Assembly (NCBI GenBank): GCA_964434285.1
Contig: CAYSUJ010000001.1
Span: 33,913 to 97,912 of the forward strand
Source: an uncultured Candidatus Saccharibacteria bacterium
Lineage (GTDB): Bacteria > Patescibacteriota > Minisyncoccia > Phycocordibacterales > UBA2100
Length of the DNA stretch: 64,000 nucleotides
Reading direction: 5' to 3'
The position numbers were made by a program, and so were the translations under genes. Position 1 is the stretch's first letter, and each line of letters opens with the position of its first letter. Below are positions 36,710 through 46,519 of the stretch, piece after piece. The notes beneath the pieces are model-generated. The model worked only from the letters and a program-made list of their open reading frames with translations. It searched no databases and was not told the DNA's origin.

Positions 36710-36782
36710 GGGCCCTTAGCTCATCTGGTAGAGCACCTCATTTGCAATGAGGGGGTGGCAGGTTCGAGTCCTGTAGGGTCCA
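36710..36782 (+). tRNA. tRNA-Ala (anticodon TGC) with G3:U70 identity pair
   Basis: Acceptor GGGCCCT/AGGGTCC with a G3-T70 wobble. Anticodon stem-loop CCTCA-TTTGCAA-TGAGG. T-arm GGCAGGTTCGAGTCCTGT. CCA is not encoded. Confidence 0.9.
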
Positions 36783-37542: not shown

Positions 37543-37743
37543 TCAGCGGGGTCCATAATAGTAACGACCTCGTGGCTTGTCATCGATACCGTATCCGCCG
37601 CAATCTTCTGGGAAGTTATCGAGATCGATCGGCTTTCGGTTGCCTTCCTTGATACCACCACCTCCTGGTTCTTCCGTGTGCAGATTCGGTTTCGGAGCAA
37701 GCTCCGGTAGTTTCGTCTCTTCGCTCTGCTTTTCCTGAGGCAT
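37543..37743 (-). CDS. hypothetical small Gly/Pro/Glu-rich protein (66 aa)
   Basis: GGAGG RBS 6 nt upstream of ATG (MPQEKQSEE...). A terminator lies downstream. The track ORF extends to 37788. Confidence 0.4.
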   Translation of the reverse strand: MPQEKQSEETKLPELAPKPNLHTEEPGGGGIKEGNRKPIDLDNFPEDCGGYGIDDKPRGRYYYGPR

Positions 37744-37953
37744 GTTTTCCTCCGTTTCTTCAGGTAAGCGCGTGCCAGTGATTAACACTACACCTGGGTG
37801 TTTTAACTGTCGAGTGTTTTGTGAACAGCGTTAATTGTGCTTCACTGCGCTGAGCTGAGTACAATGTGTAAAAATCAACGGAGCAATTATTTGCATGGAT
37901 GTCAATTTTGAAGTAATTTATGCAGGTGGTAACAACAATGAAAGGACCACGAC

Positions 37954-38196
37954 GTGAGCACACAAACGAAATTGGGTCGCATCAGGCCGTCAAACAACCA
38001 ACTCATGGGGTTGGTGAATGAAGTGGTCAAAGACAAGCAGCGGTTAGGGGATCTTCTCCATATGCTTGCTGTCGCAATGCGTCGCCAAGCCATGCAAACT
38101 TCTCGAGATTCAGTCGGAGGAGATGTGGTTTCTCCCGAAAAACTTCGGCTTGTGAGTATGGCCGTCGAAAATGCATCGACGATAATTCGGAAGTAG
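37954..38196 (+). CDS. hypothetical small protein (80 aa), candidate regulator
   Basis: GTG start with an AAAGGA RBS. Followed immediately by a strong terminator. Sits just upstream of the TasA-like cluster. Confidence 0.35.
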   Translation: MSTQTKLGRIRPSNNQLMGLVNEVVKDKQRLGDLLHMLAVAMRRQAMQTSRDSVGGDVVSPEKLRLVSMAVENASTIIRK

Positions 38197-38202
38197 GCTC
38201 AA

Positions 38203-38231
38203 GGGGCGGCACGCAGTGCCGCCCCGCTCTT
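38203..38231 (+). terminator. rho-independent terminator GGGGCGGCAC-gcag-GTGCCGCCCC plus GCTCTTT
   Basis: Perfect 10-bp GC stem 7 nt after the stop of the 37954..38196 ORF. Confidence 0.6.
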
Positions 38232-38362: not shown

Positions 38363-38453
38363 TAGGAGTGTCACGCGGCGGGGAACGTGCGACACACGAA
38401 ACCCGCATGGTGTATCTCACCATCACTTGTTTATCAGAGAAGCTCAGCACGAC

Positions 38454-38495
38454 GAGCCGGTTTTGTTTTGCGCACGCGCAAAACAAAACCGGCTC
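38454..38495 (+). terminator. perfect 20-bp stem-loop GAGCCGGTTTTGTTTTGCGC-ac-GCGCAAAACAAAACCGGCTC followed by CTTTGTCG (leader attenuator or terminator candidate)
   Basis: Seen directly, about 95 nt downstream of the promoter candidate and 120 nt upstream of the first TasA-like gene. Confidence 0.45.
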
Positions 38496-38615
38496 TTTGT
38501 CGTGAGCGATTGTCGTGGGAACCAACGGTCGATCCCGACAAGGAGTCAGACATTAAAAGTGATTATCAAAATTATCAATGACGGGTTTCCGAAACCCGTC
38601 ACATCAGAAAAAAAT

Positions 38616-39860
38616 ATGACACGAATTCTTAATACGCGAATCCTCGGGGCTCTCGCGATGATCGTGTTCGTGGGTGCAATCGTCGCTTCGTCGACTGGTG
38701 CATTCTTCTCGGACACCGAAACATCAACAGGGAATACGTTTACAGCAGGGGCAATCGATCTCAAGATCGACAGCGTTGCGCACTACAACGGCATGGTGTG
38801 TGCCGCGAATGGCGAGACATACATTTGGGTTCCAAATGCAAGCGCACCGCTTGACCTAGAAACTATGCAGCCAGTTCTCAGTGACCTTATGAACGAACAG
38901 TCTGAATGGGATGCATTCAACACTGCAAACCCGCTTCAGTATCCAAAGGCAGGTGTTGTTTGTACGGGCACATGGCCGCTCGCTGATCTTGGCGACGGCG
39001 AATTGGCTGTTGGTACGTTCTTCGATTTCGACGACATCAAGCCGGGTGACGAGGGTGAAAACACGGTTTCCATCCACATCGACACCAACGACGCATGGAT
39101 GTGTGCTGAGTTGAGCAATGTGGCAGAGGCGGACAACGGTCAGACAGAGCCGGAGGCTCCAGTCGATCCTGACGCAGATGTTGCAGCGGAACTCGATAAC
39201 AACCTCCACTTCTTCGCATGGCGTGACGATGGCGACAATATCTTCGAGGATGGCGAAACGCCACTCGGTGGTCCTGTTGCTGCAAGCACGCTCGTCAACC
39301 AGAAGTGGGCACTTGCTGATTCAACGACGGGCAACGGCCCAATCGTGGGTGACGTGACTTCGTACATCGGTGTGTACTGGTGTGCTGGCACCATCTCGGT
39401 TGTGGGCAACACCCTCAGCTGTAGCGGTGCAGAAATGGGCAACGAAGCTCAGACGGACTCATGGTCTGCTGACCTCTCGTTCTATGTCGAACAGTCTCGT
39501 AACAATGCGAACTTCCGATGTAATCCTGTGACGCAGCCTGAGACGGCTGCTCTGACTGTTGATAAGGAAGTTACGTTTTCTAGCGTGACTCTTGCTGTCG
39601 GTGTTGGCGACTTCACGCTTCACATTAGCAATGGTGCAGGGATTGACCAAGATGTGACTGATGAAACTCAAGTAACTGGCTTGCCAGCAGGAACTTACAC
39701 GGTTACAGAGATCTACACTGGGTCTGAAAACATCACCTTTGACGCAGAGTTTGGGGGTGCTTGTACGGACAACGGTTCAACCGGTTCTGTCACATTGGCA
39801 GAAGGTGATAATCTGACGTGCACAATCACGAACAGTATTTCTCCAGTTGATCCAGTCTAG
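38616..39860 (+). CDS. secreted TasA/CalY(camelysin)-like protein P1 with SipW-cognate signal peptide and C-terminal CnaB/prealbumin-like domain
   Basis: N-terminus MTRILNTRILGALAMIVFVGAIVASSTGAFFSDTETSTGNTFTAGAIDLKIDS. Core motifs KPGDEGENTVSIH, NEPE, AWRDDGDNIFEDGE, YIGVYWCAG and NEAQTD...SFY..QSRNN..FRC are shared with P2-P4. C-terminal GTYTVTE...NLTCTITN domain. The track ORF starts upstream at 38334 and the first ATG consistent with a signal peptide is at 38616. Confidence 0.7.
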   Translation: MTRILNTRILGALAMIVFVGAIVASSTGAFFSDTETSTGNTFTAGAIDLKIDSVAHYNGMVCAANGETYIWVPNASAPLDLETMQPVLSDLMNEQSEWDAFNTANPLQYPKAGVVCTGTWPLADLGDGELAVGTFFDFDDIKPGDEGENTVSIHIDTNDAWMCAELSNVAEADNGQTEPEAPVDPDADVAAELDNNLHFFAWRDDGDNIFEDGETPLGGPVAASTLVNQKWALADSTTGNGPIVGDVTSYIGVYWCAGTISVVGNTLSCSGAEMGNEAQTDSWSADLSFYVEQSRNNANFRCNPVTQPETAALTVDKEVTFSSVTLAVGVGDFTLHISNGAGIDQDVTDETQVTGLPAGTYTVTEIYTGSENITFDAEFGGACTDNGSTGSVTLAEGDNLTCTITNSISPVDPV

Positions 39861-39865
39861 TCCTG

Positions 39866-40004
39866 GCCCAACTAACGGCTCAAATAGCGCTATTTGACCC
39901 GTTGGGCAAAAAGAGTCAATCGTTCAATTTCGCCCGAAATTGAACGATTAGGGCTCGGGTATAGCCGAACTCTGGCCGGATTTCAGCCAAGGGCTGAAAT
40001 CCGG
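39866..40004. repeat. three consecutive perfect stem-loops in the P1-P2 intergenic region
   Basis: Hairpin 1 (39866-39907): GCCCAAC...GTTGGGC enclosing the palindrome CAAATAGCGCTATTTG. Hairpin 2 (39918-39949): AATCGTTCAATTTCG-cc-CGAAATTGAACGATT. Hairpin 3 (39976-40004): CCGGATTTCAGCC-aag-GGCTGAAATCCGG. Confidence 0.65.
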
Positions 40005-40061
40005 CAGAGGGGGCTGTATCTCTAGGGGAAACAGCGGTTATTAAATTAAAAAAATAACAGT

Positions 40062-41627
40062 ATGGTAAAAACATTACTTAACACTCGAATACTGGCATCG
40101 CTCGCGATGATTGTGTTCGTTGGTGCGGTCGTCGCAAGCTCGACGGGCGCATTCTTCTCCGACACGGAGACCTCCACGGGGAATACCTTCACCGCAGGAG
40201 CAATCGATCTCAAGATTGATAACTCAAGCTATGGGTTTGATTGGAATAATCCTGCAATCGCTTTGGATGAGGCAACGGGTGTCTGGGGTCCGAACGCGGC
40301 AAACTCATGGGAGCTCGCCGATCTCACGAATCAGCTCTTCTTTAGCTTCCGCGACCTGAAGCCGGGGGATTACGGCGAGGACACCATCTCGCTCCACGTG
40401 AACGACAACGATGCCTACGCATGTATGGCGTTCGACCTGACGGGTACTCCTGAAAACGGCCAGAATGAGCCGGAAGCAGCAGTTGACGCAACCGCAGGCG
40501 CAGACGAAGGCGAGTTGCAAAACTACCTCTCGTTCCTCTTCTGGTACGACGATGGCGACAACATTCTTGAAGTGGGCGAACAAGTTATTCCTGAGCTCAG
40601 CGGCGCACCAGGCTCGGTATTCTCCGGCACATGGCTTCCAATTGCTGAAGGTGGCGACACACCGCTTCCGGGTGGCTCCACACAGTACATCGGCAAGGGC
40701 TGGTGCTTCGGTAACATCTCGCCAAATCCTATGGCGCAGGATGGTGTGGGCACAGGTGCTCCAACCGCTGAGACGACAGGCTTTATTTGCTCGGGCGCAG
40801 CGGGTGACCACAACGATGCACAGACAGACGGCATTCAAGTGAACGTCGGTTTCTACGCAGTGCAGTCTCGCAACAACGGACAGTTCCAGTGCGCTGGGTT
40901 GCCACCGTTTGGGGATGCTAATGAGACCCGCACGCAAACTGTAAACCAGGCTGCGCTCGCGCTTGATATCGACGATGTGCTCGCAGATCCAACGTTGTGG
41001 TTCTTCTACAACGACACCGCTCCTGAAGGAATAATGACGATTGACCAATTCAGCGGTGCGGGCGGTGAAAACCACATGGAATCAGTTGATTCTGAAGCAG
41101 GAGCAAAGATGGTGCTCGATACCGGTGTAAATCCTCGCTACAACATTGCGACGGCGCAATTCAGCGATATCTTGGGAACCATCAGCTCGCTTAAGTTCCG
41201 CGTCTATGATGCGACAGCTGATAGCGACACACCGTTCTTGCAGTTCAACGTCGATTTTGCGACAAGCACAATGGGCGTGGGATATCAGGGGCGCTTGACC
41301 ATGCAGCCGGGAACCGGCGGCAATGCCGCGCTTCCTGCAGTAACGTGGACGACGGTAGACGCACAAGGCACTGCAATGTGGACGTGGTCTAAGCTCGCTG
41401 TTGGTCCGGATTTGATTGCGGCAACAGCAGACGACAACACTTGGCCAGATGGTGACACGAATCAATATCGTTCGTGGGACTCTATCGTTGCAGCATTTCC
41501 AGATGCGAAGCTTCTTTCTCCTGGTTCGTTCCTCGGTGTCCGCACTGGGCAGCCGGGGCCAGCCGGAGCAACGAACTTCGTGAGCTCTATCGAGTTTGAT
41601 GGCGTGATCTACGACTTCGAACTCTAG
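40062..41627 (+). CDS. secreted TasA/CalY-like protein P2 with SipW-cognate signal peptide and unique ~300-aa C-terminal domain
   Basis: N-terminus MVKTLLNTRILASLAMIVFVGAVVASSTGAFFSDTETSTGNTFTAGAIDLKIDN. Core motifs KPGDYGEDTISLH, NEPE, WYDDGDNILEVGE, YIGKGWCFG and NDAQTD...FYAVQSRNN..FQC. Confidence 0.7.
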   Translation: MVKTLLNTRILASLAMIVFVGAVVASSTGAFFSDTETSTGNTFTAGAIDLKIDNSSYGFDWNNPAIALDEATGVWGPNAANSWELADLTNQLFFSFRDLKPGDYGEDTISLHVNDNDAYACMAFDLTGTPENGQNEPEAAVDATAGADEGELQNYLSFLFWYDDGDNILEVGEQVIPELSGAPGSVFSGTWLPIAEGGDTPLPGGSTQYIGKGWCFGNISPNPMAQDGVGTGAPTAETTGFICSGAAGDHNDAQTDGIQVNVGFYAVQSRNNGQFQCAGLPPFGDANETRTQTVNQAALALDIDDVLADPTLWFFYNDTAPEGIMTIDQFSGAGGENHMESVDSEAGAKMVLDTGVNPRYNIATAQFSDILGTISSLKFRVYDATADSDTPFLQFNVDFATSTMGVGYQGRLTMQPGTGGNAALPAVTWTTVDAQGTAMWTWSKLAVGPDLIAATADDNTWPDGDTNQYRSWDSIVAAFPDAKLLSPGSFLGVRTGQPGPAGATNFVSSIEFDGVIYDFEL

Positions 41628-41744
41628 TTTTCTCTAGCCGTTCTGGGCATCGTGCGGTGCCCAGCGGGCTGAAGAAAAATTCAGCAAGGTCTAATTATTC
41701 ACAGGGGAAACATTATTTAATCACTCGGGGGATAAAAACTAATT

Positions 41745-43694
41745 ATGAACACATCACGAATCCTGCTCGCGCTTCTCCTTATCATCGGAGCGGGCGGTGC
41801 GCTTGCTGGGGGAACCACCGCATTCTTCTCCGACACGGAGACGTCTTCGGGCAATATGTTTACCGCGGGCGACATCGACCTGAAGATTGATAACGACAGC
41901 TACTACAACGGCAATCGTTGTACAAATGTCGGCAACGAAGAGGCGCCTGACTACCAATGGGTGGGAGAGGCTGCGTTTCCAGTTGCCGGAACTCCCTGCG
42001 ACACCTCGTTCCCAGCAAGTGACTTGGATAATGGACTCTTGTTCTTCAACTTTACCGACATCAAGCCGAGCGATGACGGCGAAGACACTATCTCCATCCA
42101 TGCGGGCACGAACGAAGCCTATGCATGTCTCGACATGGCACTCACCTCGAACGACGACATCTCCTCGAACGAGCCTGAGCTTGGCGATGGCGACGCCCCT
42201 GAAGACGAGAACAACACCTGGGATGGTGAACTCGCACAGACCTTGCAGATGTTTTGGTGGGCGGACGACGGCGACAACGTGTATGAAATAGGTGAAGGTG
42301 CCCTCACGGATGGTGTGCAGACTGTCGAGGATATGTTTGGTGGCGACCAGCAGGTCTTCACCGCGACCTTGGCTGATGCAGACGAAAACATTTGGGGCGA
42401 AGACGGCGGGATCCCCGGCAACCAGACTCGCTACATCGCGAAAGCGTGGTGTTTTGGTGACCTTGCTATGAACGCGCTCCCGAATGACGCAGGTACCGGC
42501 CCACAGGATCGCCCTGGCTTCTTCACCTGTGATGGTTCTGCACTCGATAACACAACGCAAACCGACGGCATAACGCTTGATGTGGCCTTCCGCGCGATCC
42601 AAGCGCGTCACAACGACCGCTTCCAGTGCGATGGCGAGGATGAGGAGACGCGCACCGCGACTCTCACTGTGATTAAGGTGGTAACGAACGATAACGGCGG
42701 CAACAATGTGGTCGCCGACTTCCAACTCTTCGCAGATAATGGCGTGACCGAAATCGGGCTTACCTCTGGCGTACCGACGGTTGTGCCTGCGACAAACTAC
42801 ACCATCACGGAAACCGGCATCTCGGGCTACGTGGCATCGTTTAGCGGCGACTGTGATGCAAATGGCTTCATCACACTCGCACCGGGTGACAACAAGACCT
42901 GCACCATCACGAACAACGACCTTCCGGCAAACATCACACTTATCAAGAACGTGATAAACGACAACGGTGGCACGGCAACAGCGAACTCGGCGTGGGGTCT
43001 CCGCATTGACGGCAATATCGTGCCGAACAACACGTCGGTCTCGGTCTCTGCAAACACACCGCACTCGATCAGCGAAGATGGCCGCGCAGGCTATGTGTTC
43101 CAATCCATCACCGGGCATCCGAAGTGTCCGTTGGTTCTTGGTGGCACGGCAACGCTTGATGAAGGGGAAGCCATCACTTGTACCATCACAAATAATGATG
43201 TGGCGCCGCTCACCGAGAGCTTCGGCACGGGTGCTTGTCTCCAAGACATCCCAGGTTGGGATGAAGACGCAGGAGAAAGCTGTGTGAACGGTACTGTTGC
43301 TGCTGCTATCGGCGTGGGCGACGATACGGCGAGCCCTGATGGCGGCAGGTTCGCACTCATCGGTAACACTGGCTATATCTGCCGTCAGGTGAGCGCAACA
43401 GGTCTTCAGAATCTTCAGCTGAAGTACTACTGGCGAGGAGATTCGGCAGGTGACGCCGGAGCAGATTTTGGTGTCGTGCAGGTATACACCGGCGGCACGT
43501 GTGCTTCGCCGACGGGCGTCACACAACTCGCGTCCCACGATGTCTCGGTAAATTCATGGAGTGCACTCCAAACAGTTAATCTTCCGGGTGCGCTCGACAA
43601 CACAAGCTTCTTCGTTCGATTCGCCGCAGATACGAACGGCGGCACGGAGAGCTTCCGCATCGACGGGGTTAGCGTGACGGGCTCGCCGCTCTAG
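41745..43694 (+). CDS. secreted TasA/CalY-like protein P3 with SipW-cognate signal peptide, two tandem CnaB/prealbumin-like domains and a C-terminal Cys-containing domain
   Basis: N-terminus MNTSRILLALLLIIGAGGALAGGTTAFFSDTETSSGNMFTAGDIDLKIDN. Core KPSDDGEDTISIH, NEPE, WADDGDNVYEIGE, YIAKAWCFG and TTQTD...FRAIQARHN..FQC. Two tandem repeats each end in TCTITNND. A GGGGGA RBS precedes the start. Confidence 0.7.
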   Translation: MNTSRILLALLLIIGAGGALAGGTTAFFSDTETSSGNMFTAGDIDLKIDNDSYYNGNRCTNVGNEEAPDYQWVGEAAFPVAGTPCDTSFPASDLDNGLLFFNFTDIKPSDDGEDTISIHAGTNEAYACLDMALTSNDDISSNEPELGDGDAPEDENNTWDGELAQTLQMFWWADDGDNVYEIGEGALTDGVQTVEDMFGGDQQVFTATLADADENIWGEDGGIPGNQTRYIAKAWCFGDLAMNALPNDAGTGPQDRPGFFTCDGSALDNTTQTDGITLDVAFRAIQARHNDRFQCDGEDEETRTATLTVIKVVTNDNGGNNVVADFQLFADNGVTEIGLTSGVPTVVPATNYTITETGISGYVASFSGDCDANGFITLAPGDNKTCTITNNDLPANITLIKNVINDNGGTATANSAWGLRIDGNIVPNNTSVSVSANTPHSISEDGRAGYVFQSITGHPKCPLVLGGTATLDEGEAITCTITNNDVAPLTESFGTGACLQDIPGWDEDAGESCVNGTVAAAIGVGDDTASPDGGRFALIGNTGYICRQVSATGLQNLQLKYYWRGDSAGDAGADFGVVQVYTGGTCASPTGVTQLASHDVSVNSWSALQTVNLPGALDNTSFFVRFAADTNGGTESFRIDGVSVTGSPL

Positions 43695-43698
43695 GAGT

Positions 43699-43735
43699 GG
43701 GGCGCGCCGGAGGCGCGCCCGATGTTCTTTCGTTC
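43699..43735 (+). terminator. GC hairpin GGGCGCGCC-ggag-GCGCGCCC followed by a U-rich tract between P3 and P4
   Basis: 8-9 bp all-GC stem followed by GATGTTCTTTCGTTC. Confidence 0.4.
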
Positions 43736-43749
43736 GAAGAGGAAATACT

Positions 43750-44718
43750 ATGTCATCTCTCAAACTCTCAATTCGCCTCGTATTCACCGCCGTCATTATG
43801 TCGGCAGTGATACTGGCGTTTGGGTTTAGGAGTGAGGCAACAGGCACGACCTTTGCGACGAAGAAAAAAGGCGAGACATTTGATTTGAAGATTGATAGCA
43901 AGGCTTCGTGGAACGGCGTCTTGCAGCCATCTTCGACGTGGGCCCTGAAGAACCTGAACCCGACGTCAGACAAATTCTTCAATCTTGATGACGTGAAGCC
44001 AGGTGACAGAGGCGAGGCGACGATTTCACTCCACGTAAACAAGGACGCATGGGTGTGTTTGGACTTCGAGAATCTTAAGGAGAAAGAGAATGGCAGAAAT
44101 GAACCAGAACTCCTGGTGGATGATTCTGGTGGCGCAAACTCGGGGGAGCTTGCCGATGGTACCGAATTCTTCGGTTGGCGCGATGATGGCGACAATATCT
44201 TTGAGGTGGGAGAAATTCCGCTCTTCGGTACGTCGACCAACAAACAAGCGGCGACGCAGGTGCTTAATCAAATGACATATCCGCTCGCGGATTCAAAAAC
44301 AGGGAATGCACTTGTAGCATCGACCACACGCTACATTGGGATTGAGTGGTGCGCGGGCGATTTGGAGGTGGATGTGCCCACGGCGACCATCACCTGTGAT
44401 GGCGAGGCTTTGAGGAACGAAGCGCAGACCGATTCCTTCTCCGTGGACATTTCGTTCCGCGCGGTGCCGGTGAAAGACAACAAAAAATTCACCTGCGTGA
44501 AGAAGGGGACGACCTGTGAGTACGGCTGTTCAGGCAACTGTGGCCCCGTCAACGTGACAGTGGACAACAGCGCAACCGTCACAAACACGACGACATCAAA
44601 CTCAAACACGGGCGGCAATTACGCAGGTGGCGGTGGAACGGTCACGACAGGAAACGCATCTTCAACCTCTTCAACGACGAATATCATCAACCAGTTGCGG
44701 CTCTTGATCGGAAGATAA
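43750..44718 (+). CDS. secreted TasA/CalY-like protein P4 (diverged N-terminal signal region; core domain plus S/T/N/G-rich C-terminal tail)
   Basis: The N-terminus has a TM/signal segment and ..GTTFATKKKGETFDLKIDS. Core KPGDRGEATISLH, NEPE, GWRDDGDNIFEVGE, YIGIEWCAG and NEAQTD...FRAV. Tail TNTTTSNSNTGGNYAGGGGTVTTGNASSTSSTTN. An AGAGGAA RBS precedes the start. Confidence 0.6.
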   Translation: MSSLKLSIRLVFTAVIMSAVILAFGFRSEATGTTFATKKKGETFDLKIDSKASWNGVLQPSSTWALKNLNPTSDKFFNLDDVKPGDRGEATISLHVNKDAWVCLDFENLKEKENGRNEPELLVDDSGGANSGELADGTEFFGWRDDGDNIFEVGEIPLFGTSTNKQAATQVLNQMTYPLADSKTGNALVASTTRYIGIEWCAGDLEVDVPTATITCDGEALRNEAQTDSFSVDISFRAVPVKDNKKFTCVKKGTTCEYGCSGNCGPVNVTVDNSATVTNTTTSNSNTGGNYAGGGGTVTTGNASSTSSTTNIINQLRLLIGR

Positions 44719-44724
44719 AACGCT

Positions 44725-45996
44725 ATGTTGAAATTTGTTAACACACTCGTCACAACACTCTTCATCGCAACGATGCTTGGCGTTGCGGGGCTTCTCGTGG
44801 GCTCGATGCTTCCGATTCCTGGCAACATCGAGATCAAGATCGTGAAGTCGGGCTCGATGGAGCCGGCGATCCCAACTGGGTCACTCGTCGTCGTGAAGCC
44901 CTCCGCATCGTTTGCCTACAATGTGGGCGACGTCATCACCTTTGGAGCCGACACGCGAAGCGAGGTGCCGACGACCCACCGCATCGTGGCGGTGGAGGGC
45001 ACGGGCTCAGAGCGAATTTTCGTTACCAAAGGTGACGCGAACGAAGACATCGATCAGGAATCGGTTGCGCTCTCGGAGGTCATCGGAAAGGTGCTCTTTA
45101 GCGTGCCAGGCGCTGGCTATGTGCTCGCGTTTGCGCGGGAACCGCTCGGTTTTGCGCTTCTTGTGGGCATTCCTGCGGGGCTCATCATTCTTGAAGAACT
45201 CATAACGATAGGGAAAGAAGTGCGGGCGGCCGTGCGCAGGCGTCGTGACGAGGAGGATGAGCCGAAAGGCGGCGCAGGCTCGCTCGACGAAGACGGCGCG
45301 CCCCTGCGGCTCTTTTATGGGCGCAGTCGCGTGATGGATGAAATCTTCGTGCCGATGTATCAGAAGCCCAGCTTCTTACACGCGGAGTGGTGGCACAAAC
45401 AATTTCGCATGCACAAAGACACCTATGGCACTTCGACGGCGCTCGTCTTGGGGCTCGTGTTTATGTCTTCCATGATGGTGGGCGGTGCTGGCGGCACCAT
45501 CTCATACTTTAGCGACATAGAGCGCTCGGTGGGCAACATCTTCCGCGCGGGTGAGTGGTTACCGCCAGAGCCGCCGCTCATTGCTGAAGAGATTATTCCT
45601 TTCGCTGCGGTACTTGGCGTAGCGACAGAGAATACGCCCGCTCCTGAAGAAGTCGTGCCCGAAAAGGAACCAGCAACATCTGATTCGGAGGCCGTTATTC
45701 CGGACACTTCTGTGCAGAATGAGGAAGGTAGCGGAAACTCGAACGAAGGGAATCCGAGCTCAAGTATGAGTGAGCCGATTCCGTCGACTGAGCCTCAGCT
45801 GACGCAAGACGAAGGGACCATGGAGTATGATCCGAGCATAGGGTTAGATGGCGAGGTGGAAGAATCTGTAACACAGTCTCCGGATGAAAATCTGCCCCCT
45901 GGTGAAGGTGCATCGTCTCAAGAAACAATCGTGCCCGAAGAGACGCAAGAACCAAACGTGGGTGAACTAGTCGGCGAGGAGATCAGTGTGCTGTGA
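44725..45996 (+). CDS. sipW: signal peptidase I, SipW type (S26B), with a ~250-aa C-terminal extension containing an internal SipW-cognate signal-like motif and an acidic S/E/P-rich tail
   Basis: Catalytic Ser motif KSGSMEPAIPTGSLVVVKP, His motif PTTHRIVAV and TKGDANEDID. After the C-terminal TM (FALLVGIPAGLIILEELI) and RRRRDEEDE comes TSTALVLGLVFMSSMMVGGAGGTISYFSDIERSVGNIFRAGEW. A low-complexity acidic tail runs to the stop. Confidence 0.75.
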   Translation: MLKFVNTLVTTLFIATMLGVAGLLVGSMLPIPGNIEIKIVKSGSMEPAIPTGSLVVVKPSASFAYNVGDVITFGADTRSEVPTTHRIVAVEGTGSERIFVTKGDANEDIDQESVALSEVIGKVLFSVPGAGYVLAFAREPLGFALLVGIPAGLIILEELITIGKEVRAAVRRRRDEEDEPKGGAGSLDEDGAPLRLFYGRSRVMDEIFVPMYQKPSFLHAEWWHKQFRMHKDTYGTSTALVLGLVFMSSMMVGGAGGTISYFSDIERSVGNIFRAGEWLPPEPPLIAEEIIPFAAVLGVATENTPAPEEVVPEKEPATSDSEAVIPDTSVQNEEGSGNSNEGNPSSSMSEPIPSTEPQLTQDEGTMEYDPSIGLDGEVEESVTQSPDENLPPGEGASSQETIVPEETQEPNVGELVGEEISVL

Positions 45997-46096: not shown

Positions 46097-46519
46097 GTGT
46101 GGAATATCGTTATTTCAATACTCATGATGCTGTCCACCTTCTCACAGGCGGCGGCTGAAGCCTCGATCGAAAGCACTTTCGCAGAGTACGGCATTCAGGT
46201 GCAGATCGACAGTGCGGTCCGATGCGGGCGTGCTCAAGGCGAATGCGAGGCCAAGCGAATCATCGTCGTGACTGGTGTCTCATGCAATAGTCCGGCTGAT
46301 TCGCTTGGGGTGGAAGTGGGCGATATCGTTATCGGCCATGGCAACGCCACAATCGAAACTGAGAATGGTCCATCGGAGAAAGCGCTGTTCTTCAGATTGT
46401 GTTGCTTCGGCACACAAATGGCCGCGTGCGGTATATCATCCAATGGTTGGAAAAGCGCCCGTTCGACAATGATGCAGAAAACGTCCGTTGTGGGCGTCCA
46501 GGAAGTCGCATATAAGTGA
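46097..46519 (+). CDS. hypothetical secreted Cys-rich protein, possibly PDZ-like
   Basis: GTG start with an AAAGGAG RBS. Signal peptide ...TFSQAAAEA. Six Cys. GVEVGDIVIG resembles a PDZ carboxylate-binding region. Confidence 0.4.
   Translation: MWNIVISILMMLSTFSQAAAEASIESTFAEYGIQVQIDSAVRCGRAQGECEAKRIIVVTGVSCNSPADSLGVEVGDIVIGHGNATIETENGPSEKALFFRLCCFGTQMAACGISSNGWKSARSTMMQKTSVVGVQEVAYK

What the first reader, a model, noticed from the sequence alone, without database searches (positions are those of the whole stretch)
38616..45996. Tandem array of four paralogous TasA/camelysin-like secreted proteins plus an extended SipW signal peptidase: candidate fibre or adhesin system
Four co-directional genes (P1 38616-39860, P2 40062-41627, P3 41745-43694, P4 43750-44718) encode proteins of 322-649 aa. 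Their N-termini in P1-P3 are a hydrophobic h-region followed by G(A/T)FFSDTETS(T/S)GN(T/M)FTAG(A/D)IDLKID; P4 carries a diverged version. This is the SipW-cognate signal class of Bacillus TasA (AAFNDIKSKDATFASGTLDL) and CalY/camelysin (GGTFAFFSDKEVSNNTFAAGTLDL). All four share a roughly 250-aa core with conserved blocks: KPGD.GE.TIS(L/I)H, (A)(Y/W)(A/M)C, NEPE, (W/Y)(A/D/R)DDGDN(I/V)(F/L/Y)E(V/D/I)GE, YI(G/A)..WC(F/A)G, and C(S/D)G....N(D/E/T)(A/T)QTD...(V/L)...F(Y/R)A(V/I)..(R/K).N..F(Q/R/T)C. Four Cys are conserved, likely forming two disulfides, and DDGDN is an acidic Ca-binding-like motif. C-terminal modules vary: P1 has one CnaB/prealbumin-like domain, P3 has two, P2 has a unique 300-aa domain, and P4 has an S/T/N/G-rich tail. 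The SipW-type signal peptidase gene follows directly, as in B. subtilis tapA-sipW-tasA, but with a different gene order and a multiplied substrate set. The first ~150 nt of P1 and P2 are roughly 75-80% identical at the DNA level, pointing to recent duplication or gene conversion. Overall this looks like a major subunit plus tip or minor adhesin subunits processed by a dedicated peptidase. The window contains no canonical Bacillus regulators sinR or tapA.
Basis: partly seen in the sequence, partly recalled or inferred. Interest (0 to 1): 0.85.

Follow-up and report, generated by a model that had tools for sequence, protein, structure and literature searches.

The report
TasA-like fibre operon with peptidase-substrate fusion
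A tiny uncultured (Patescibacteria) bacterium carries a conserved five-gene set that most likely builds a TasA-type surface fibre. Its dedicated signal peptidase is fused to a short copy of the strand that such fibres use to link subunits. No experiment has yet shown the fibre.

Summary

The module is ancient and ordered. It occurs in 222 species-level Patescibacteria genomes. P4-type lies next to SipW in 67 of 80 loci, and P3-type lies one position upstream. The codon test shows no recent gene conversion.

New here: the peptidase's "extension" is a fifth substrate. It has a third membrane helix, then GGTISYFSDIERSVGNIFRAG, then an acidic tail. It is fused to SipW in 33 loci and a separate gene in 28. 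P4-type proteins consistently lack the canonical motif.

I read this as a donor-only initiator, polymerising subunits with adhesin modules, and an acceptor-only end piece. This is a new variant of a known kind, and fibre formation is inferred only.

The parts
38435..38552 (+). Conserved structured leader upstream of the first subunit gene. It holds a 19-bp hairpin (38454-38495) with a U-rich 3' side, followed by a second conserved element.
   Evidence: Terminator-like hairpin. The fold has z-score -7.7. The region is 80% identical to L002. Covariance model R1 finds it directly upstream of the first core gene in six further loci, five of them at E <= 0.0034 and L058 only at E 0.17. 12 of 22 pairs show compensatory changes in 8 sequences. 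No Rfam family matches.
38616..39860 (+). P1. Parts: signal (aa 1-28), donor-strand-like N-terminus (aa 29-45), core (aa 46-304), one weak SpaA/prealbumin-like C-terminal domain (aa 310-404).
   Evidence: TIGR04088 25.0 bits against cut-off 19. M73 hit covers aa 21-53 only and SpaA_2 is sub-threshold. Core alignment.
39917..40007 (+). Two hairpins in the P1-P2 intergenic region.
   Evidence: The region is 84% identical to the equivalent intergenic region of L002.
40062..41627 (+). P2. Parts: signal plus donor-like motif, core (aa 47-279), rare ~240-aa C-terminal beta-sandwich domain (aa 284-521).
   Evidence: TIGR04088 24.3 bits. The C-terminal domain has only 13 homologues. Its AF2 model has pLDDT 80.7 and pTM 0.82. 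Best PDB matches are carbohydrate-binding modules: xanthanase CBM at E 4.5e-4 and CBM11 at TM 0.40/0.53.
41745..43694 (+). P3. Parts: signal plus donor-like motif, core (aa 43-297), two SpaA_2 prealbumin-like domains (aa ~304-484), unassigned C-terminal ~165-aa domain.
   Evidence: TIGR04088 34.4 bits. SpaA_2 61.3 bits in two stretches and M73 23.5 bits against cut-off 22.5. P3-type occupies position -1 relative to P4 in 40 of 69 loci. The C-terminal domain has no PDB sequence match.
43700..43720 (+). GC-rich hairpin in the P3-P4 intergenic region.
43750..44718 (+). P4. Parts: hydrophobic N-terminus without the canonical motif, core (aa 44-251), Cys-rich linker, conserved S/T/N/G tail (…SNTGGNxAGxGGTVxTGNASS…TNIxN).
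44725..45234 (+). SipW/ER-type signal peptidase domain (aa 1-170): TM1, catalytic domain with Ser44, His85 and Asp104, then TM2.
   Evidence: TIGR02228 99.3 bits against cut-off 51.85. Catalytic residues are invariant in 29 homologues. Hydropathy.
45235..45426 (+). Predicted cytoplasmic linker (aa 171-234): RRRR cluster and the conserved motif Y.R.R.MDEIFVPM. In genomes where the gene is split, this stretch is the N-region of the downstream preprotein.
   Evidence: Alignment A4. N-termini of the split versions.
45427..45561 (+). Third membrane helix (aa 235-256) followed by GGT|ISYFSDIERSVGNIFRAG. This is a SipW-cognate signal and donor-strand-like segment inside the peptidase ORF.
   Evidence: TIGR04088 17.5 bits against cut-off 19. 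T258, Y261, D264, S268, N271 and A275 are invariant in 29 homologues. 13 of 29 fused homologues hit TIGR04088 at E<=0.01, best 1.4e-7. Split orthologues score 22.2 and 26.5 bits.
45562..45996 (+). Acidic Glu/Pro/Ser-rich, low-complexity tail (aa 280-423). It occupies the place of the Lamin-tail-domain module seen in relatives.
   Evidence: Composition. LTD (PF00932) is present in fused and split relatives.

Best explanation
This is a self-contained, SipW-dependent surface-fibre module of a Paceibacteria-class Patescibacterium. It is built on the TasA principle.

Shown:
- The operon encodes an ER-type signal peptidase and five proteins with N-terminal membrane helices.
- Four of the five (P1, P2, P3 and the peptidase's own C-terminal extension) carry the SipW-cognate motif directly after that helix.
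- P1-P4 share a Cys-stabilised, acidic beta-sandwich core whose best structural match is the TasA fibre subunit.
- C-terminal modules are of adhesin type (SpaA/CnaB-like and CBM-like here; VWA, SdrD-B and beta-helix in relatives).
- Gene order and the split between motif-bearing and motif-lacking subunits are conserved across the class.

Inferred mechanism:
1. SipW cleaves after the small residues that precede (A)FFSDTE. This exposes AFFSDTETSTG, the counterpart of TasA residues 28-38, as a donor strand.
2. Each P1-P3 subunit inserts this strand into the beta-sandwich of the next subunit. The result is a fibre decorated with adhesin modules. The acidic DDGDN loop and pI of about 4 suggest calcium dependence.
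3. The two end pieces are encoded in the operon. The peptidase-fused segment ISYFSDIERSVGNIFRAG has a donor strand but no acceptor domain, so it can only start or cap the fibre at its acceptor end. That is what the N-terminus of TapA does for TasA. Here it is either held at the membrane by the peptidase or released with an acidic tail.
4. P4 has an acceptor core but no canonical donor strand. It can therefore sit only at the opposite end, either as a cap or, if its helix is not cleaved, as a membrane-anchored base.
5. The likely use is attachment to host cells or surfaces, or matrix formation.
For: - Peptidase identity and catalytic residues.
- Signal class: TIGR04088 above cut-off in P1-P3. 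The motif is present in 133 of 138 P1/2/3-type proteins in 80 loci.
- Conservation pattern: the mature N-terminal ~25 residues are the most conserved part of a family whose mean column identity is 13%. P1/P2 are 79-88% identical there against about 45% in the core. This is more than a cleavage site needs. It matches the TasA donor strand (residues 28-38, with F29, I32 and F39; PMC9674648).
- Charge: pI about 4.05 and 13-16% Asp+Glu. This resembles the calcium-responsive AbpX group (preprint 10.64898/2026.01.04.697558).
- Adhesin-type C-terminal modules.
- Module conservation: 222 loci. Ordered array. No other conserved neighbour gene.
- Fusion: 3 membrane helices with the RRRR cluster on the cytoplasmic side, which places the motif on the same side as the catalytic domain. 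33 loci are fused and 28 split. 13 of 29 fused proteins match both TIGR02228 and TIGR04088.
- TapA precedent: residues 44-57 alone suffice for function, and TapA donates its N-terminal strand (PMC10151520).
Against: - No sequence-level homology links the core to TasA. PF12389 matches only profile positions ~3-56 of 196. hhalign against TasA gives probability 3%. The PDB sequence search finds nothing.
- No multimer model, expression data or microscopy was available.
- The cleavage sites, the fate of the fused segment (cleaved or not) and P4's processing are untested.
- In this window every subunit carries a C-terminal module, so no obvious plain stalk subunit exists. Many relatives do have a core-only first gene.
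- The window's fused motif scores just below the TIGR04088 cut-off (17.5 against 19).
Confidence: 0.6

Rival explanations
1. These are monomeric surface or secreted adhesins. Each protein is exported and trimmed by SipW and then acts alone as a calcium-binding beta-sandwich carrying a binding module. On this reading the conserved N-terminal motif serves only peptidase recognition, and no fibre forms.
Against: About 25 residues after the cleavage region are nearly invariant across a very diverged family. A peptidase site would not require that. The operon keeps one class without the motif (P4) and one piece with only the motif (the extension). That pattern is expected for fibre ends and unexplained for independent adhesins. 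The top structural hits are donor-strand filament subunits.
Confidence: 0.2
2. This is an envelope lattice or S-layer-like coat. The paralogues would co-assemble into a two-dimensional calcium-dependent surface layer, in keeping with their position beside cell-wall and division genes.
For: The proteins are acidic and have a DDGDN motif. Ddl lies upstream and the mraZ-rsmH-PBP-mur genes lie downstream. The module is widely conserved in the class.
Against: The dcw neighbourhood is kept only in the closest relatives. No S-layer or SLH domain was found. Variable adhesin-type C-terminal modules and the best structural matches point to filaments.
Confidence: 0.1
3. These are camelysin-type secreted metalloproteases, following the literal Pfam name Peptidase_M73.
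For: PF12389 hits in P1-P3 and in 60 of 87 family representatives.
Against: The hits cover only the signal and first strand (profile positions 3-56 of 196). There is no HExxH, and only one invariant His in the core. TasA, the best-studied member of that Pfam family, is a fibre subunit (PMC9674648).
Confidence: 0.03
4. The peptidase-substrate fusion has no function of its own. It would be an accidental loss of a stop codon that joined SipW to a decaying downstream gene, whose globular and LTD domains have already been lost here.
For: In the window and its closest relatives the tail is low-complexity and lacks the LTD seen elsewhere. 28 loci keep the two genes separate.
Against: The fusion occurs in 33 species-level loci spread over several lineages. 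The linker motif, third helix and donor-like motif are invariant across them. That argues for selection on the fused form.
Confidence: 0.15

Closest known systems
Bacillus subtilis tapA-sipW-tasA operon (TasA fibre; PDB 8AUR, 5OF1)
   Same: A dedicated ER-type signal peptidase is encoded with its substrates. The substrates carry the same signal class (TIGR04088), and the conserved mature N-terminus is the donor strand. The subunit is a beta-sandwich. There is an accessory piece that carries a donor-like N-terminus but does not polymerise (TapA).
   Different: The core shows no sequence similarity to TasA and has four conserved Cys and a DDGDN motif. There are four paralogous subunits with large adhesin-type C-terminal modules, not one 26-kDa subunit. 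The gene order differs. No TapA Ig domain is present; instead the donor-like piece is fused to (or follows) the peptidase. No SinR-type regulator was seen next to the operon, but the window was not scanned exhaustively. The host is a Patescibacterium.
Bacillus cereus sipW-calY1-calY2 (camelysins)
   Same: More than one paralogous SipW substrate sits beside the peptidase. One paralogue is proposed to take the TapA role (PMC10151520). The FFSD-type motif is the closest sequence match to P1-P3.
   Different: Camelysins are ~200-aa single-domain proteins matched over the full PF12389 profile. Here only the first ~50 profile positions match.
Archaeal and bacterial TasA-superfamily loci (AbpA, AbpX, Tafi, Saci_0406 thread, cannulae)
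   Different: Those surveys kept proteins of 100-350 aa and did not report Patescibacteria. Their peptidase accessory is DUF5305 or a 10-helix peptidase, not a fused substrate segment.
Chaperone-usher pili (Fim/Pap), as an analogy for polarity
   Same: The fibre ends are defined by subunits that can only accept a strand (the FimH tip adhesin lacks a donor extension). This statement on Fim/Pap rests on my own knowledge.
   Different: There is no outer membrane, chaperone or usher, and no evolutionary relationship.
Signal peptidase I fused to accessory modules (for example DUF5305 fusions such as Anaerolinea thermophila E8MZY1, cited in the AbpX preprint)
   Same: A dedicated peptidase of a TasA-type locus is extended by extra membrane spans and extracellular parts.
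   Different: There the fused part is an accessory subunit. Here it carries the peptidase's own substrate motif, and it is a separate substrate gene in 28 related genomes.

Membership tests
ER-type/SipW signal peptidase (S26B; NCBIfam TIGR02228) | Profile score above the curated cut-off | tested here: met
   99.3 bits against cut-off 51.85 over aa 9-161. All 29 aligned homologues also match.
ER-type/SipW signal peptidase (S26B; NCBIfam TIGR02228) | Catalytic Ser and His (plus Asp) instead of the Ser-Lys dyad | tested here: met
   S44 (SGSMEP), H85 (TTHR) and D104 (GDAN) are invariant in 29 homologues. The mapping to B. subtilis SipW Ser47/His87/Asp106 comes from my own knowledge.
ER-type/SipW signal peptidase (S26B; NCBIfam TIGR02228) | Membrane helices flanking the catalytic domain | tested here: met
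   Hydropathy segments lie within aa 1-35 and 119-164. A third lies at 235-259.
B. subtilis SipW equivalog (NF046067) | Score above the equivalog cut-off | tested here: not met
   102.7 bits against cut-off 190. It is a relative, not an equivalog.
SipW-cognate signal class (TIGR04088) | Profile score above cut-off 19 | tested here: met
   P1 25.0, P2 24.3, P3 34.4. P4 gives no hit, so the test is not met for P4. The peptidase extension scores 17.5, just below cut-off. 13 of 29 fused relatives match at E<=0.01, and split orthologues score 22.2 and 26.5.
SipW-cognate signal class (TIGR04088) | Encoded next to a SipW-type peptidase | tested here: met
   Same strand, same array, in the window and in 78 of 82 loci held.
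TasA/camelysin (Pfam PF12389 Peptidase_M73) | Score above the Pfam gathering threshold (22.5) | tested here: inconclusive
   P3 23.5 (met); P1 18.8 and P2 19.1 (below); P4 none.
TasA/camelysin (Pfam PF12389 Peptidase_M73) | Match across the jelly-roll domain | tested here: not met
   Only profile positions 17-50 of 196 match in the window, and 3-56 in ten relatives. hhalign against TasA gives probability 3%. No PDB sequence hit.
TasA superfamily (structure-defined) | Beta-sandwich/jelly-roll fold resembling TasA | tested here: inconclusive
TasA superfamily (structure-defined) | Polymerisation by donor-strand exchange | not testable with these tools
   No multimer prediction or coordinates were available. 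Support is indirect only: conservation of the mature N-terminus.
TapA | TapA Ig-like central domain | tested here: not met
   No Pfam or NCBIfam hit in the extension. The resemblance is functional only: a donor-like N-terminus after a SipW-type signal.
Sortase-assembled Gram-positive pilins | C-terminal LPXTG sorting signal | tested here: not met
   No LPXT[GAN] occurs in P1-P4 despite the SpaA/CnaB-type domains, and there is no C-terminal hydrophobic segment.
Type IV pilins | Short charged leader, then cleavage before a hydrophobic helix with Glu5 | tested here: not met
   In P1-P4 the hydrophobic helix precedes the conserved motif.

The most novel reading that the evidence does not exclude
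The signal peptidase doubles as the assembly platform of the fibre. Its fused, membrane-tethered donor strand would fill the groove of the first subunit right where subunits are being cleaved, so processing, nucleation and anchoring happen on one polypeptide. The motif-less P4 class supplies the opposite, acceptor-only end. This would be a minimal pilus machine without chaperone, usher or sortase, specific to ultra-small Patescibacteria. It may be the long-sought second kind of appendage they use to hold on to hosts. The operon would also be preceded by an undescribed structured leader RNA.
Probability: 0.3. Interest if true: 0.8.

Novelty: new variant of a known kind. Interest (0 to 1): 0.62.

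Why it matters
Patescibacteria make up a large share of bacterial diversity and many of them live attached to other cells. Type IV pili are so far the only appendage studied in them. This module is conserved, ordered and self-contained. I found it in 222 species-level genomes, and the core family has 1,770 clusters at 50% identity. It gives a concrete second candidate for attachment or matrix formation.

The natural set of pieces is directly testable: donor-only, donor-plus-acceptor, and acceptor-only. It could show how TasA-type fibres are started, ended and anchored, which is still open even for Bacillus TapA.

The finding also shows that Pfam-based counts of "TasA homologues" in this phylum rest on the signal and donor-strand region alone.

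Tried and rejected
- Sequence search of the four-paralogue profile against all PDB chains returned nothing relevant.
- hhalign of the family against TasA gave probability 3%. The TasA sequence was recalled from memory and verified as identical to 8AUR. Sequence homology of the core is therefore not claimed.
- The second Foldseek hit, TLP-1a, is a pond fibril of unknown origin (PMC11494351). I checked it as a possible link. It is Flavobacteriales-like and the match is weak (E 6e-3), so I dropped it.
- Gene conversion between P1 and P2 is rejected by the synonymous-codon test.
- A functional link to the dcw cluster is rejected, because mraZ adjacency occurs only in the closest relatives.
- A search for further conserved accessory genes in 5-kb flanks of 80 loci found no family in more than 12 loci. 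The commonest were CAP-domain proteins, glycosyltransferases and ATP synthase.
- Metalloprotease motifs, LPXTG and lipobox readings are rejected.
- The C-terminal domains of P2 and P3 gave no PDB sequence hits.
- Literature searches for SipW or camelysin in Patescibacteria and for TIGR04088 found one sentence noting PF12389 hits in the phylum (PMC9245690). Nothing was found on a peptidase-substrate fusion.
- A model of the fused peptidase could not be examined.

Full report
**1. What is there**

The region holds five co-directional ORFs at exactly the reported coordinates. Upstream lie uvrA, uvrC, a tRNA, ddl and a GtrA-family gene. Downstream lie mraZ, rsmH, a PBP and a Mur ligase. This is an ordinary chromosomal setting with even GC content of about 0.51-0.56.

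The sequence is also present on a public 405-kb contig and on a Logan assembly of SRR14932609. Homologues are all from Patescibacteria, mainly the Paceibacteria class: Kaiser-, Adler-, Taylor-, Zambryski-, Nomura- and Lloydbacteria. More distant ones occur in Levybacteria, Moranbacteria and WWE3.

**2.

P1-P4 share a ~250-aa core with 40-49% pairwise identity to P1 and 52 invariant columns.

P1-P3 have a hydrophobic helix followed by AFFSDTETS(T/S)GN(T/M)FTAG.IDLKID. P4 has a helix followed by FRSEATGTTFATKKKGETFDLKID.

The mature proteins are very acidic, with pI about 4.05-4.65 and 13-16% Asp+Glu. There is no HExxH and no LPXTG.

**3.

| Protein | TIGR04088 (cut-off 19) | Pfam and other hits |
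|---|---|---|
| P1 | 25.0 | PF12389 aa ~20-55 only; SpaA_2 16 bits (sub-threshold) |
| P2 | 24.3 | PF12389 aa ~20-55 only |
| P3 | 34.4 | PF12389 23.5 (cut-off 22.5); SpaA_2 61 bits, two stretches |
| P4 | none | none |
| Peptidase ORF | 17.5 (at aa 252-278) | TIGR02228 99.3 (cut-off 51.85) |

- The peptidase also scores 102.7 on the B. subtilis SipW equivalog model, below that model's cut-off of 190. It is therefore a SipW-type enzyme but not the Bacillus orthologue.
- Ser44, His85 and Asp104 are invariant in 29 homologues.
- Pfam Peptidase_M73 matches only profile positions 17-50 of 196. The same is true of ten short relatives.

**4. Is the core TasA-like?**

By sequence, no.
- A profile of the four paralogues finds nothing relevant in the PDB.
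- hhalign of a 63-sequence family alignment against TasA gives probability 3%. The TasA sequence was verified as identical to 8AUR.

By fold, moderately yes.
- An AlphaFold2 model of P4 built on 63 sequences has mean pLDDT 74, with 80-93 across the core.

The segment that would be the donor strand (aa 27-37) is disordered in the monomer model. The corresponding N-terminal segment of monomeric TasA is likewise poorly ordered in its crystal structure.

**5. The family and its architecture**

A profile of the four cores finds 1,770 clusters (50% identity) at E<=1e-3 and 627 at E<=1e-30 among 1.84 billion representatives.
- The core always starts at about residue 41-47, straight after the signal.
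- Total lengths range from 280 to 990 aa.

Among 87 representatives the Pfam hits are as follows:
- 60 hit PF12389 (N-terminal part only).
- 24 carry SpaA_2 and 6 carry VWA.
- Single cases carry SdrD-B, beta-helix, DUF642 and others.

The pattern is therefore a constant core plus variable adhesin-type C-terminal modules.

In the window:
- P2's C-terminal domain is rare, with 13 homologues.
- It models well (pLDDT 80.7, pTM 0.82).
- It resembles carbohydrate-binding modules: xanthanase CBM at E 4.5e-4 and CBM11 at TM 0.40/0.53.

Across the 87 representatives, the most conserved stretch of the whole protein is T.AFFSD.E.S.GN.F.AG..DL..D.

**6. Synteny**

Scanning one genome per species found 222 loci. 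I analysed the best 80 with HMMs built here.
- Typical order: one to three P1/P2-type genes, then a P3-type gene (position -1 in 40 of 69 loci), then a P4-type gene (adjacent to the peptidase in 67 of 80), then the peptidase.
- The number of core genes upstream of the peptidase is three in 43 loci, four in 13 and two in 15.
- No other gene family recurs in more than 12 loci within 5 kb, so the module is self-contained.
- The dcw genes follow only in the closest relatives.

The paralogues are therefore old and have held fixed positions. The codon test agrees: among identical residues of P1 and P2, the same codon is used in 48% of cases in the N-terminal part and 49% in the core. The extra DNA identity at the 5' end reflects protein-level constraint.

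**7. The peptidase extension is a fifth substrate**

Homologues of the 423-aa ORF are nearly all extended, to 350-730 aa. The alignment shows this order after the catalytic domain and second helix:
- An RRRR cluster.
- A conserved Y.R.R.MDEIFVPM motif.
- A third helix.
- GGT.SYFSD.E.S.GN.F.AG, with T258, Y261, D264, S268, N271 and A275 invariant.
- A variable tail.

Hydropathy gives three helices. With the arginines inside the cell, the motif lies outside, on the side of the active site.

Of 29 fused homologues, all match TIGR02228, and 13 also match TIGR04088 at E<=0.01, with the best at 1.4e-7.

Across the 78 loci that hold a peptidase gene, the arrangement is as follows:

| Arrangement | Loci | Notes |
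|---|---|---|
| Fused to the peptidase | 33 | Linker motif, third helix and donor-like motif conserved |
| Separate downstream gene | 28 | Own Met start, same N-region and helix; canonical motif such as GGTGAYFSDHEQSTGNTFAAGPLDF; TIGR04088 22.2 and 26.5 bits in the two of eight split genes scanned that matched |
| Not detected | 17 | Partly at contig ends |

The protein usually carries a Lamin-tail domain. The window and its nearest relatives have lost that domain and keep a 143-aa Glu/Pro/Ser-rich tail. I found no description of such a peptidase-substrate fusion in the searchable literature. Fusions of TasA-locus peptidases to an accessory module (DUF5305) have been noted.

**8. P4 is a distinct class**

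The canonical motif is present in 133 of 138 P1/2/3-type proteins but in only 7 of 68 P4-type proteins.
- P4 orthologues keep TG.TFA.G...L.IDS but lack the FFSD.E part that aligns with the TasA donor strand.
- They share a conserved tail, N..T....TTSSSNTGGN.AG.GGTV.TGNASS...TNI.N, which is modelled with low confidence.

**9. Mechanism proposed**

Established knowledge:
- TasA polymerises when residues 28-38 of one subunit complete the sheet of the next (PMC9674648).
- TapA, also cut by SipW, donates its N-terminus to start the fibre.
- TapA residues 44-57 alone suffice (PMC10151520).

Shown here: the signal class, the peptidase, the fold resemblance, the strong conservation of the mature N-terminus, the module's composition, and the donor-only and acceptor-only pieces.

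Inferred:
1. SipW exposes AFFSDTETSTG.
2. P1-P3 chain together by strand donation and display their adhesin modules.
3. The fused ISYFSD segment starts or caps the acceptor end while tethered to, or released from, the peptidase.
4. P4 occupies the other end, or anchors the fibre if its helix is kept.
5. Calcium may assist assembly, given the DDGDN loop and pI of about 4, as in the AbpX group.

Hairpins after the first gene and before P4 may tune stoichiometry. Which protein is the major subunit is unresolved. Many relatives have a core-only first gene (23 of 52 arrays with three or more core genes), but the window does not.

**10. Comparison and novelty**

The closest known systems are:
- tapA-sipW-tasA.
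- The B. cereus camelysin locus.
- The archaeal and bacterial TasA-superfamily loci with a peptidase plus minor and tip subunits.

PF12389 hits in Patescibacteria were mentioned once (PMC9245690) without analysis. My results show that those hits rest on the signal and donor-strand region only.

The system is therefore a new variant of a known kind. What is new:
- A new core family.
- An ordered multi-paralogue array with adhesin modules.
- A motif-less subunit class.
- A peptidase-substrate fusion.

**11. Side finding**

A structured leader (38435-38552) precedes P1.
- A covariance model built from three loci finds it, on the same strand and directly upstream of the first core gene, in six further loci. 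The scores are 74.9, 49.8, 40.8, 26.5, 21.1 and 15.5 bits. The weakest, L058, has E 0.17 and is marginal.
- 12 of 22 hairpin pairs show compensatory changes.
- Rfam has no match.
- It could be an attenuator or a stabilising stem-loop.

**12. Limits**

- There is no multimer modelling and no coordinates, so disulfides and docking are untested.
- There are no expression or proteomic data.
- Structural similarity scores are moderate.
- Cleavage sites are assigned by analogy only.

Noticed in passing
window 38435-38552 (+); also L002 7016-7138, L005 6498-6617, L008 7234-7367, L047 1417-1529, L010 7388-7500, L041 1191-1310: A conserved structured leader lies about 65-180 nt upstream of the first fibre gene. 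It has a long hairpin (38454-38495) with a U-rich 3' side, plus a second conserved element (ACGGTCGATCCCGACAAGGAG). 12 of 22 pairs covary in 8 sequences. No Rfam family matches. It is a candidate attenuator or mRNA-stabilising stem-loop specific to this operon.
   Followed up: partly
window 39917-40007 and 43700-43720: There are two hairpins after P1, 84% conserved in L002, and a GC-rich hairpin between P3 and P4. They may be partial terminators or processing sites that set subunit ratios.
   Followed up: partly
window 44560-44718 (P4 aa 271-322): The P4 tail motif SNTGGNxAGxGGTVxTGNASS..TNIxN is conserved in P4 orthologues: six residues (G288, N290, T300, G301, N311, N314) in at least 98%, T287 and G289 in 97%, N286, G295 and G296 in 95%. 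In some orthologues GGSGGAGG-type expansions separate the two halves. It is reminiscent of curli-type Gly/Asn repeats. It is modelled with low confidence and its function is unknown.
   Followed up: partly
window 45310-45350 (peptidase aa 196-208) and about 45630-45650: Two further conserved motifs in the fused substrate have no known role. One is a predicted-cytoplasmic Y.R.R.MDEIFVPM motif before the third helix, also present at the N-terminus of the split genes. The other is an (E/A)VLG(E/A)(S/T) motif about 30 residues after the donor-like segment.
   Followed up: no
It has no Pfam hit and no PDB sequence match.
   Followed up: partly
window 38559-38616 and 40062-40107: Public gene calls disagree on start codons. 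P1 is called at 433 aa (GTG 38559) in NCBI against 414 aa. P2 is called at 506 aa (ATG 40107) against 521 aa. The 414 and 521 aa starts give matching charged n-regions in P1-P3.
   Followed up: partly
window 37543-37788 (-) and 37954-38196 (+): Two small ORFs (81 and 80 aa) lie in the 1.1-kb gap between the GtrA-family gene and P1, each followed by a terminator-like hairpin (37519-37497 on the minus strand; 38204-38226). The plus-strand ORF has no Pfam hit; the minus-strand ORF was not scanned. Part of the minus-strand ORF region is 79% identical in L002.
   Followed up: no
window 46097-46519 (+): A 140-aa ORF directly after the peptidase has a hydrophobic N-terminus and a weak PDZ hit (E 0.0014). 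It was not found beside the module in any other genome's locus; the only match is L001, the Logan copy of this same sequence. It is probably not part of the system.
   Followed up: partly
window 36710-36782 (+): A tRNA gene (Rfam RF00005, 63.9 bits) lies between ddl and the GtrA-family gene.
   Followed up: no
L013 11755-13395, L028 4395-5564, L071 6751-9213 and others: In relatives the fifth substrate carries a ~130-aa unassigned domain plus a Lamin-tail domain (PF00932), whether fused to the peptidase or encoded separately. L071 adds a bacterial Ig-like domain. The role of LTD in this system is unknown.
   Followed up: partly
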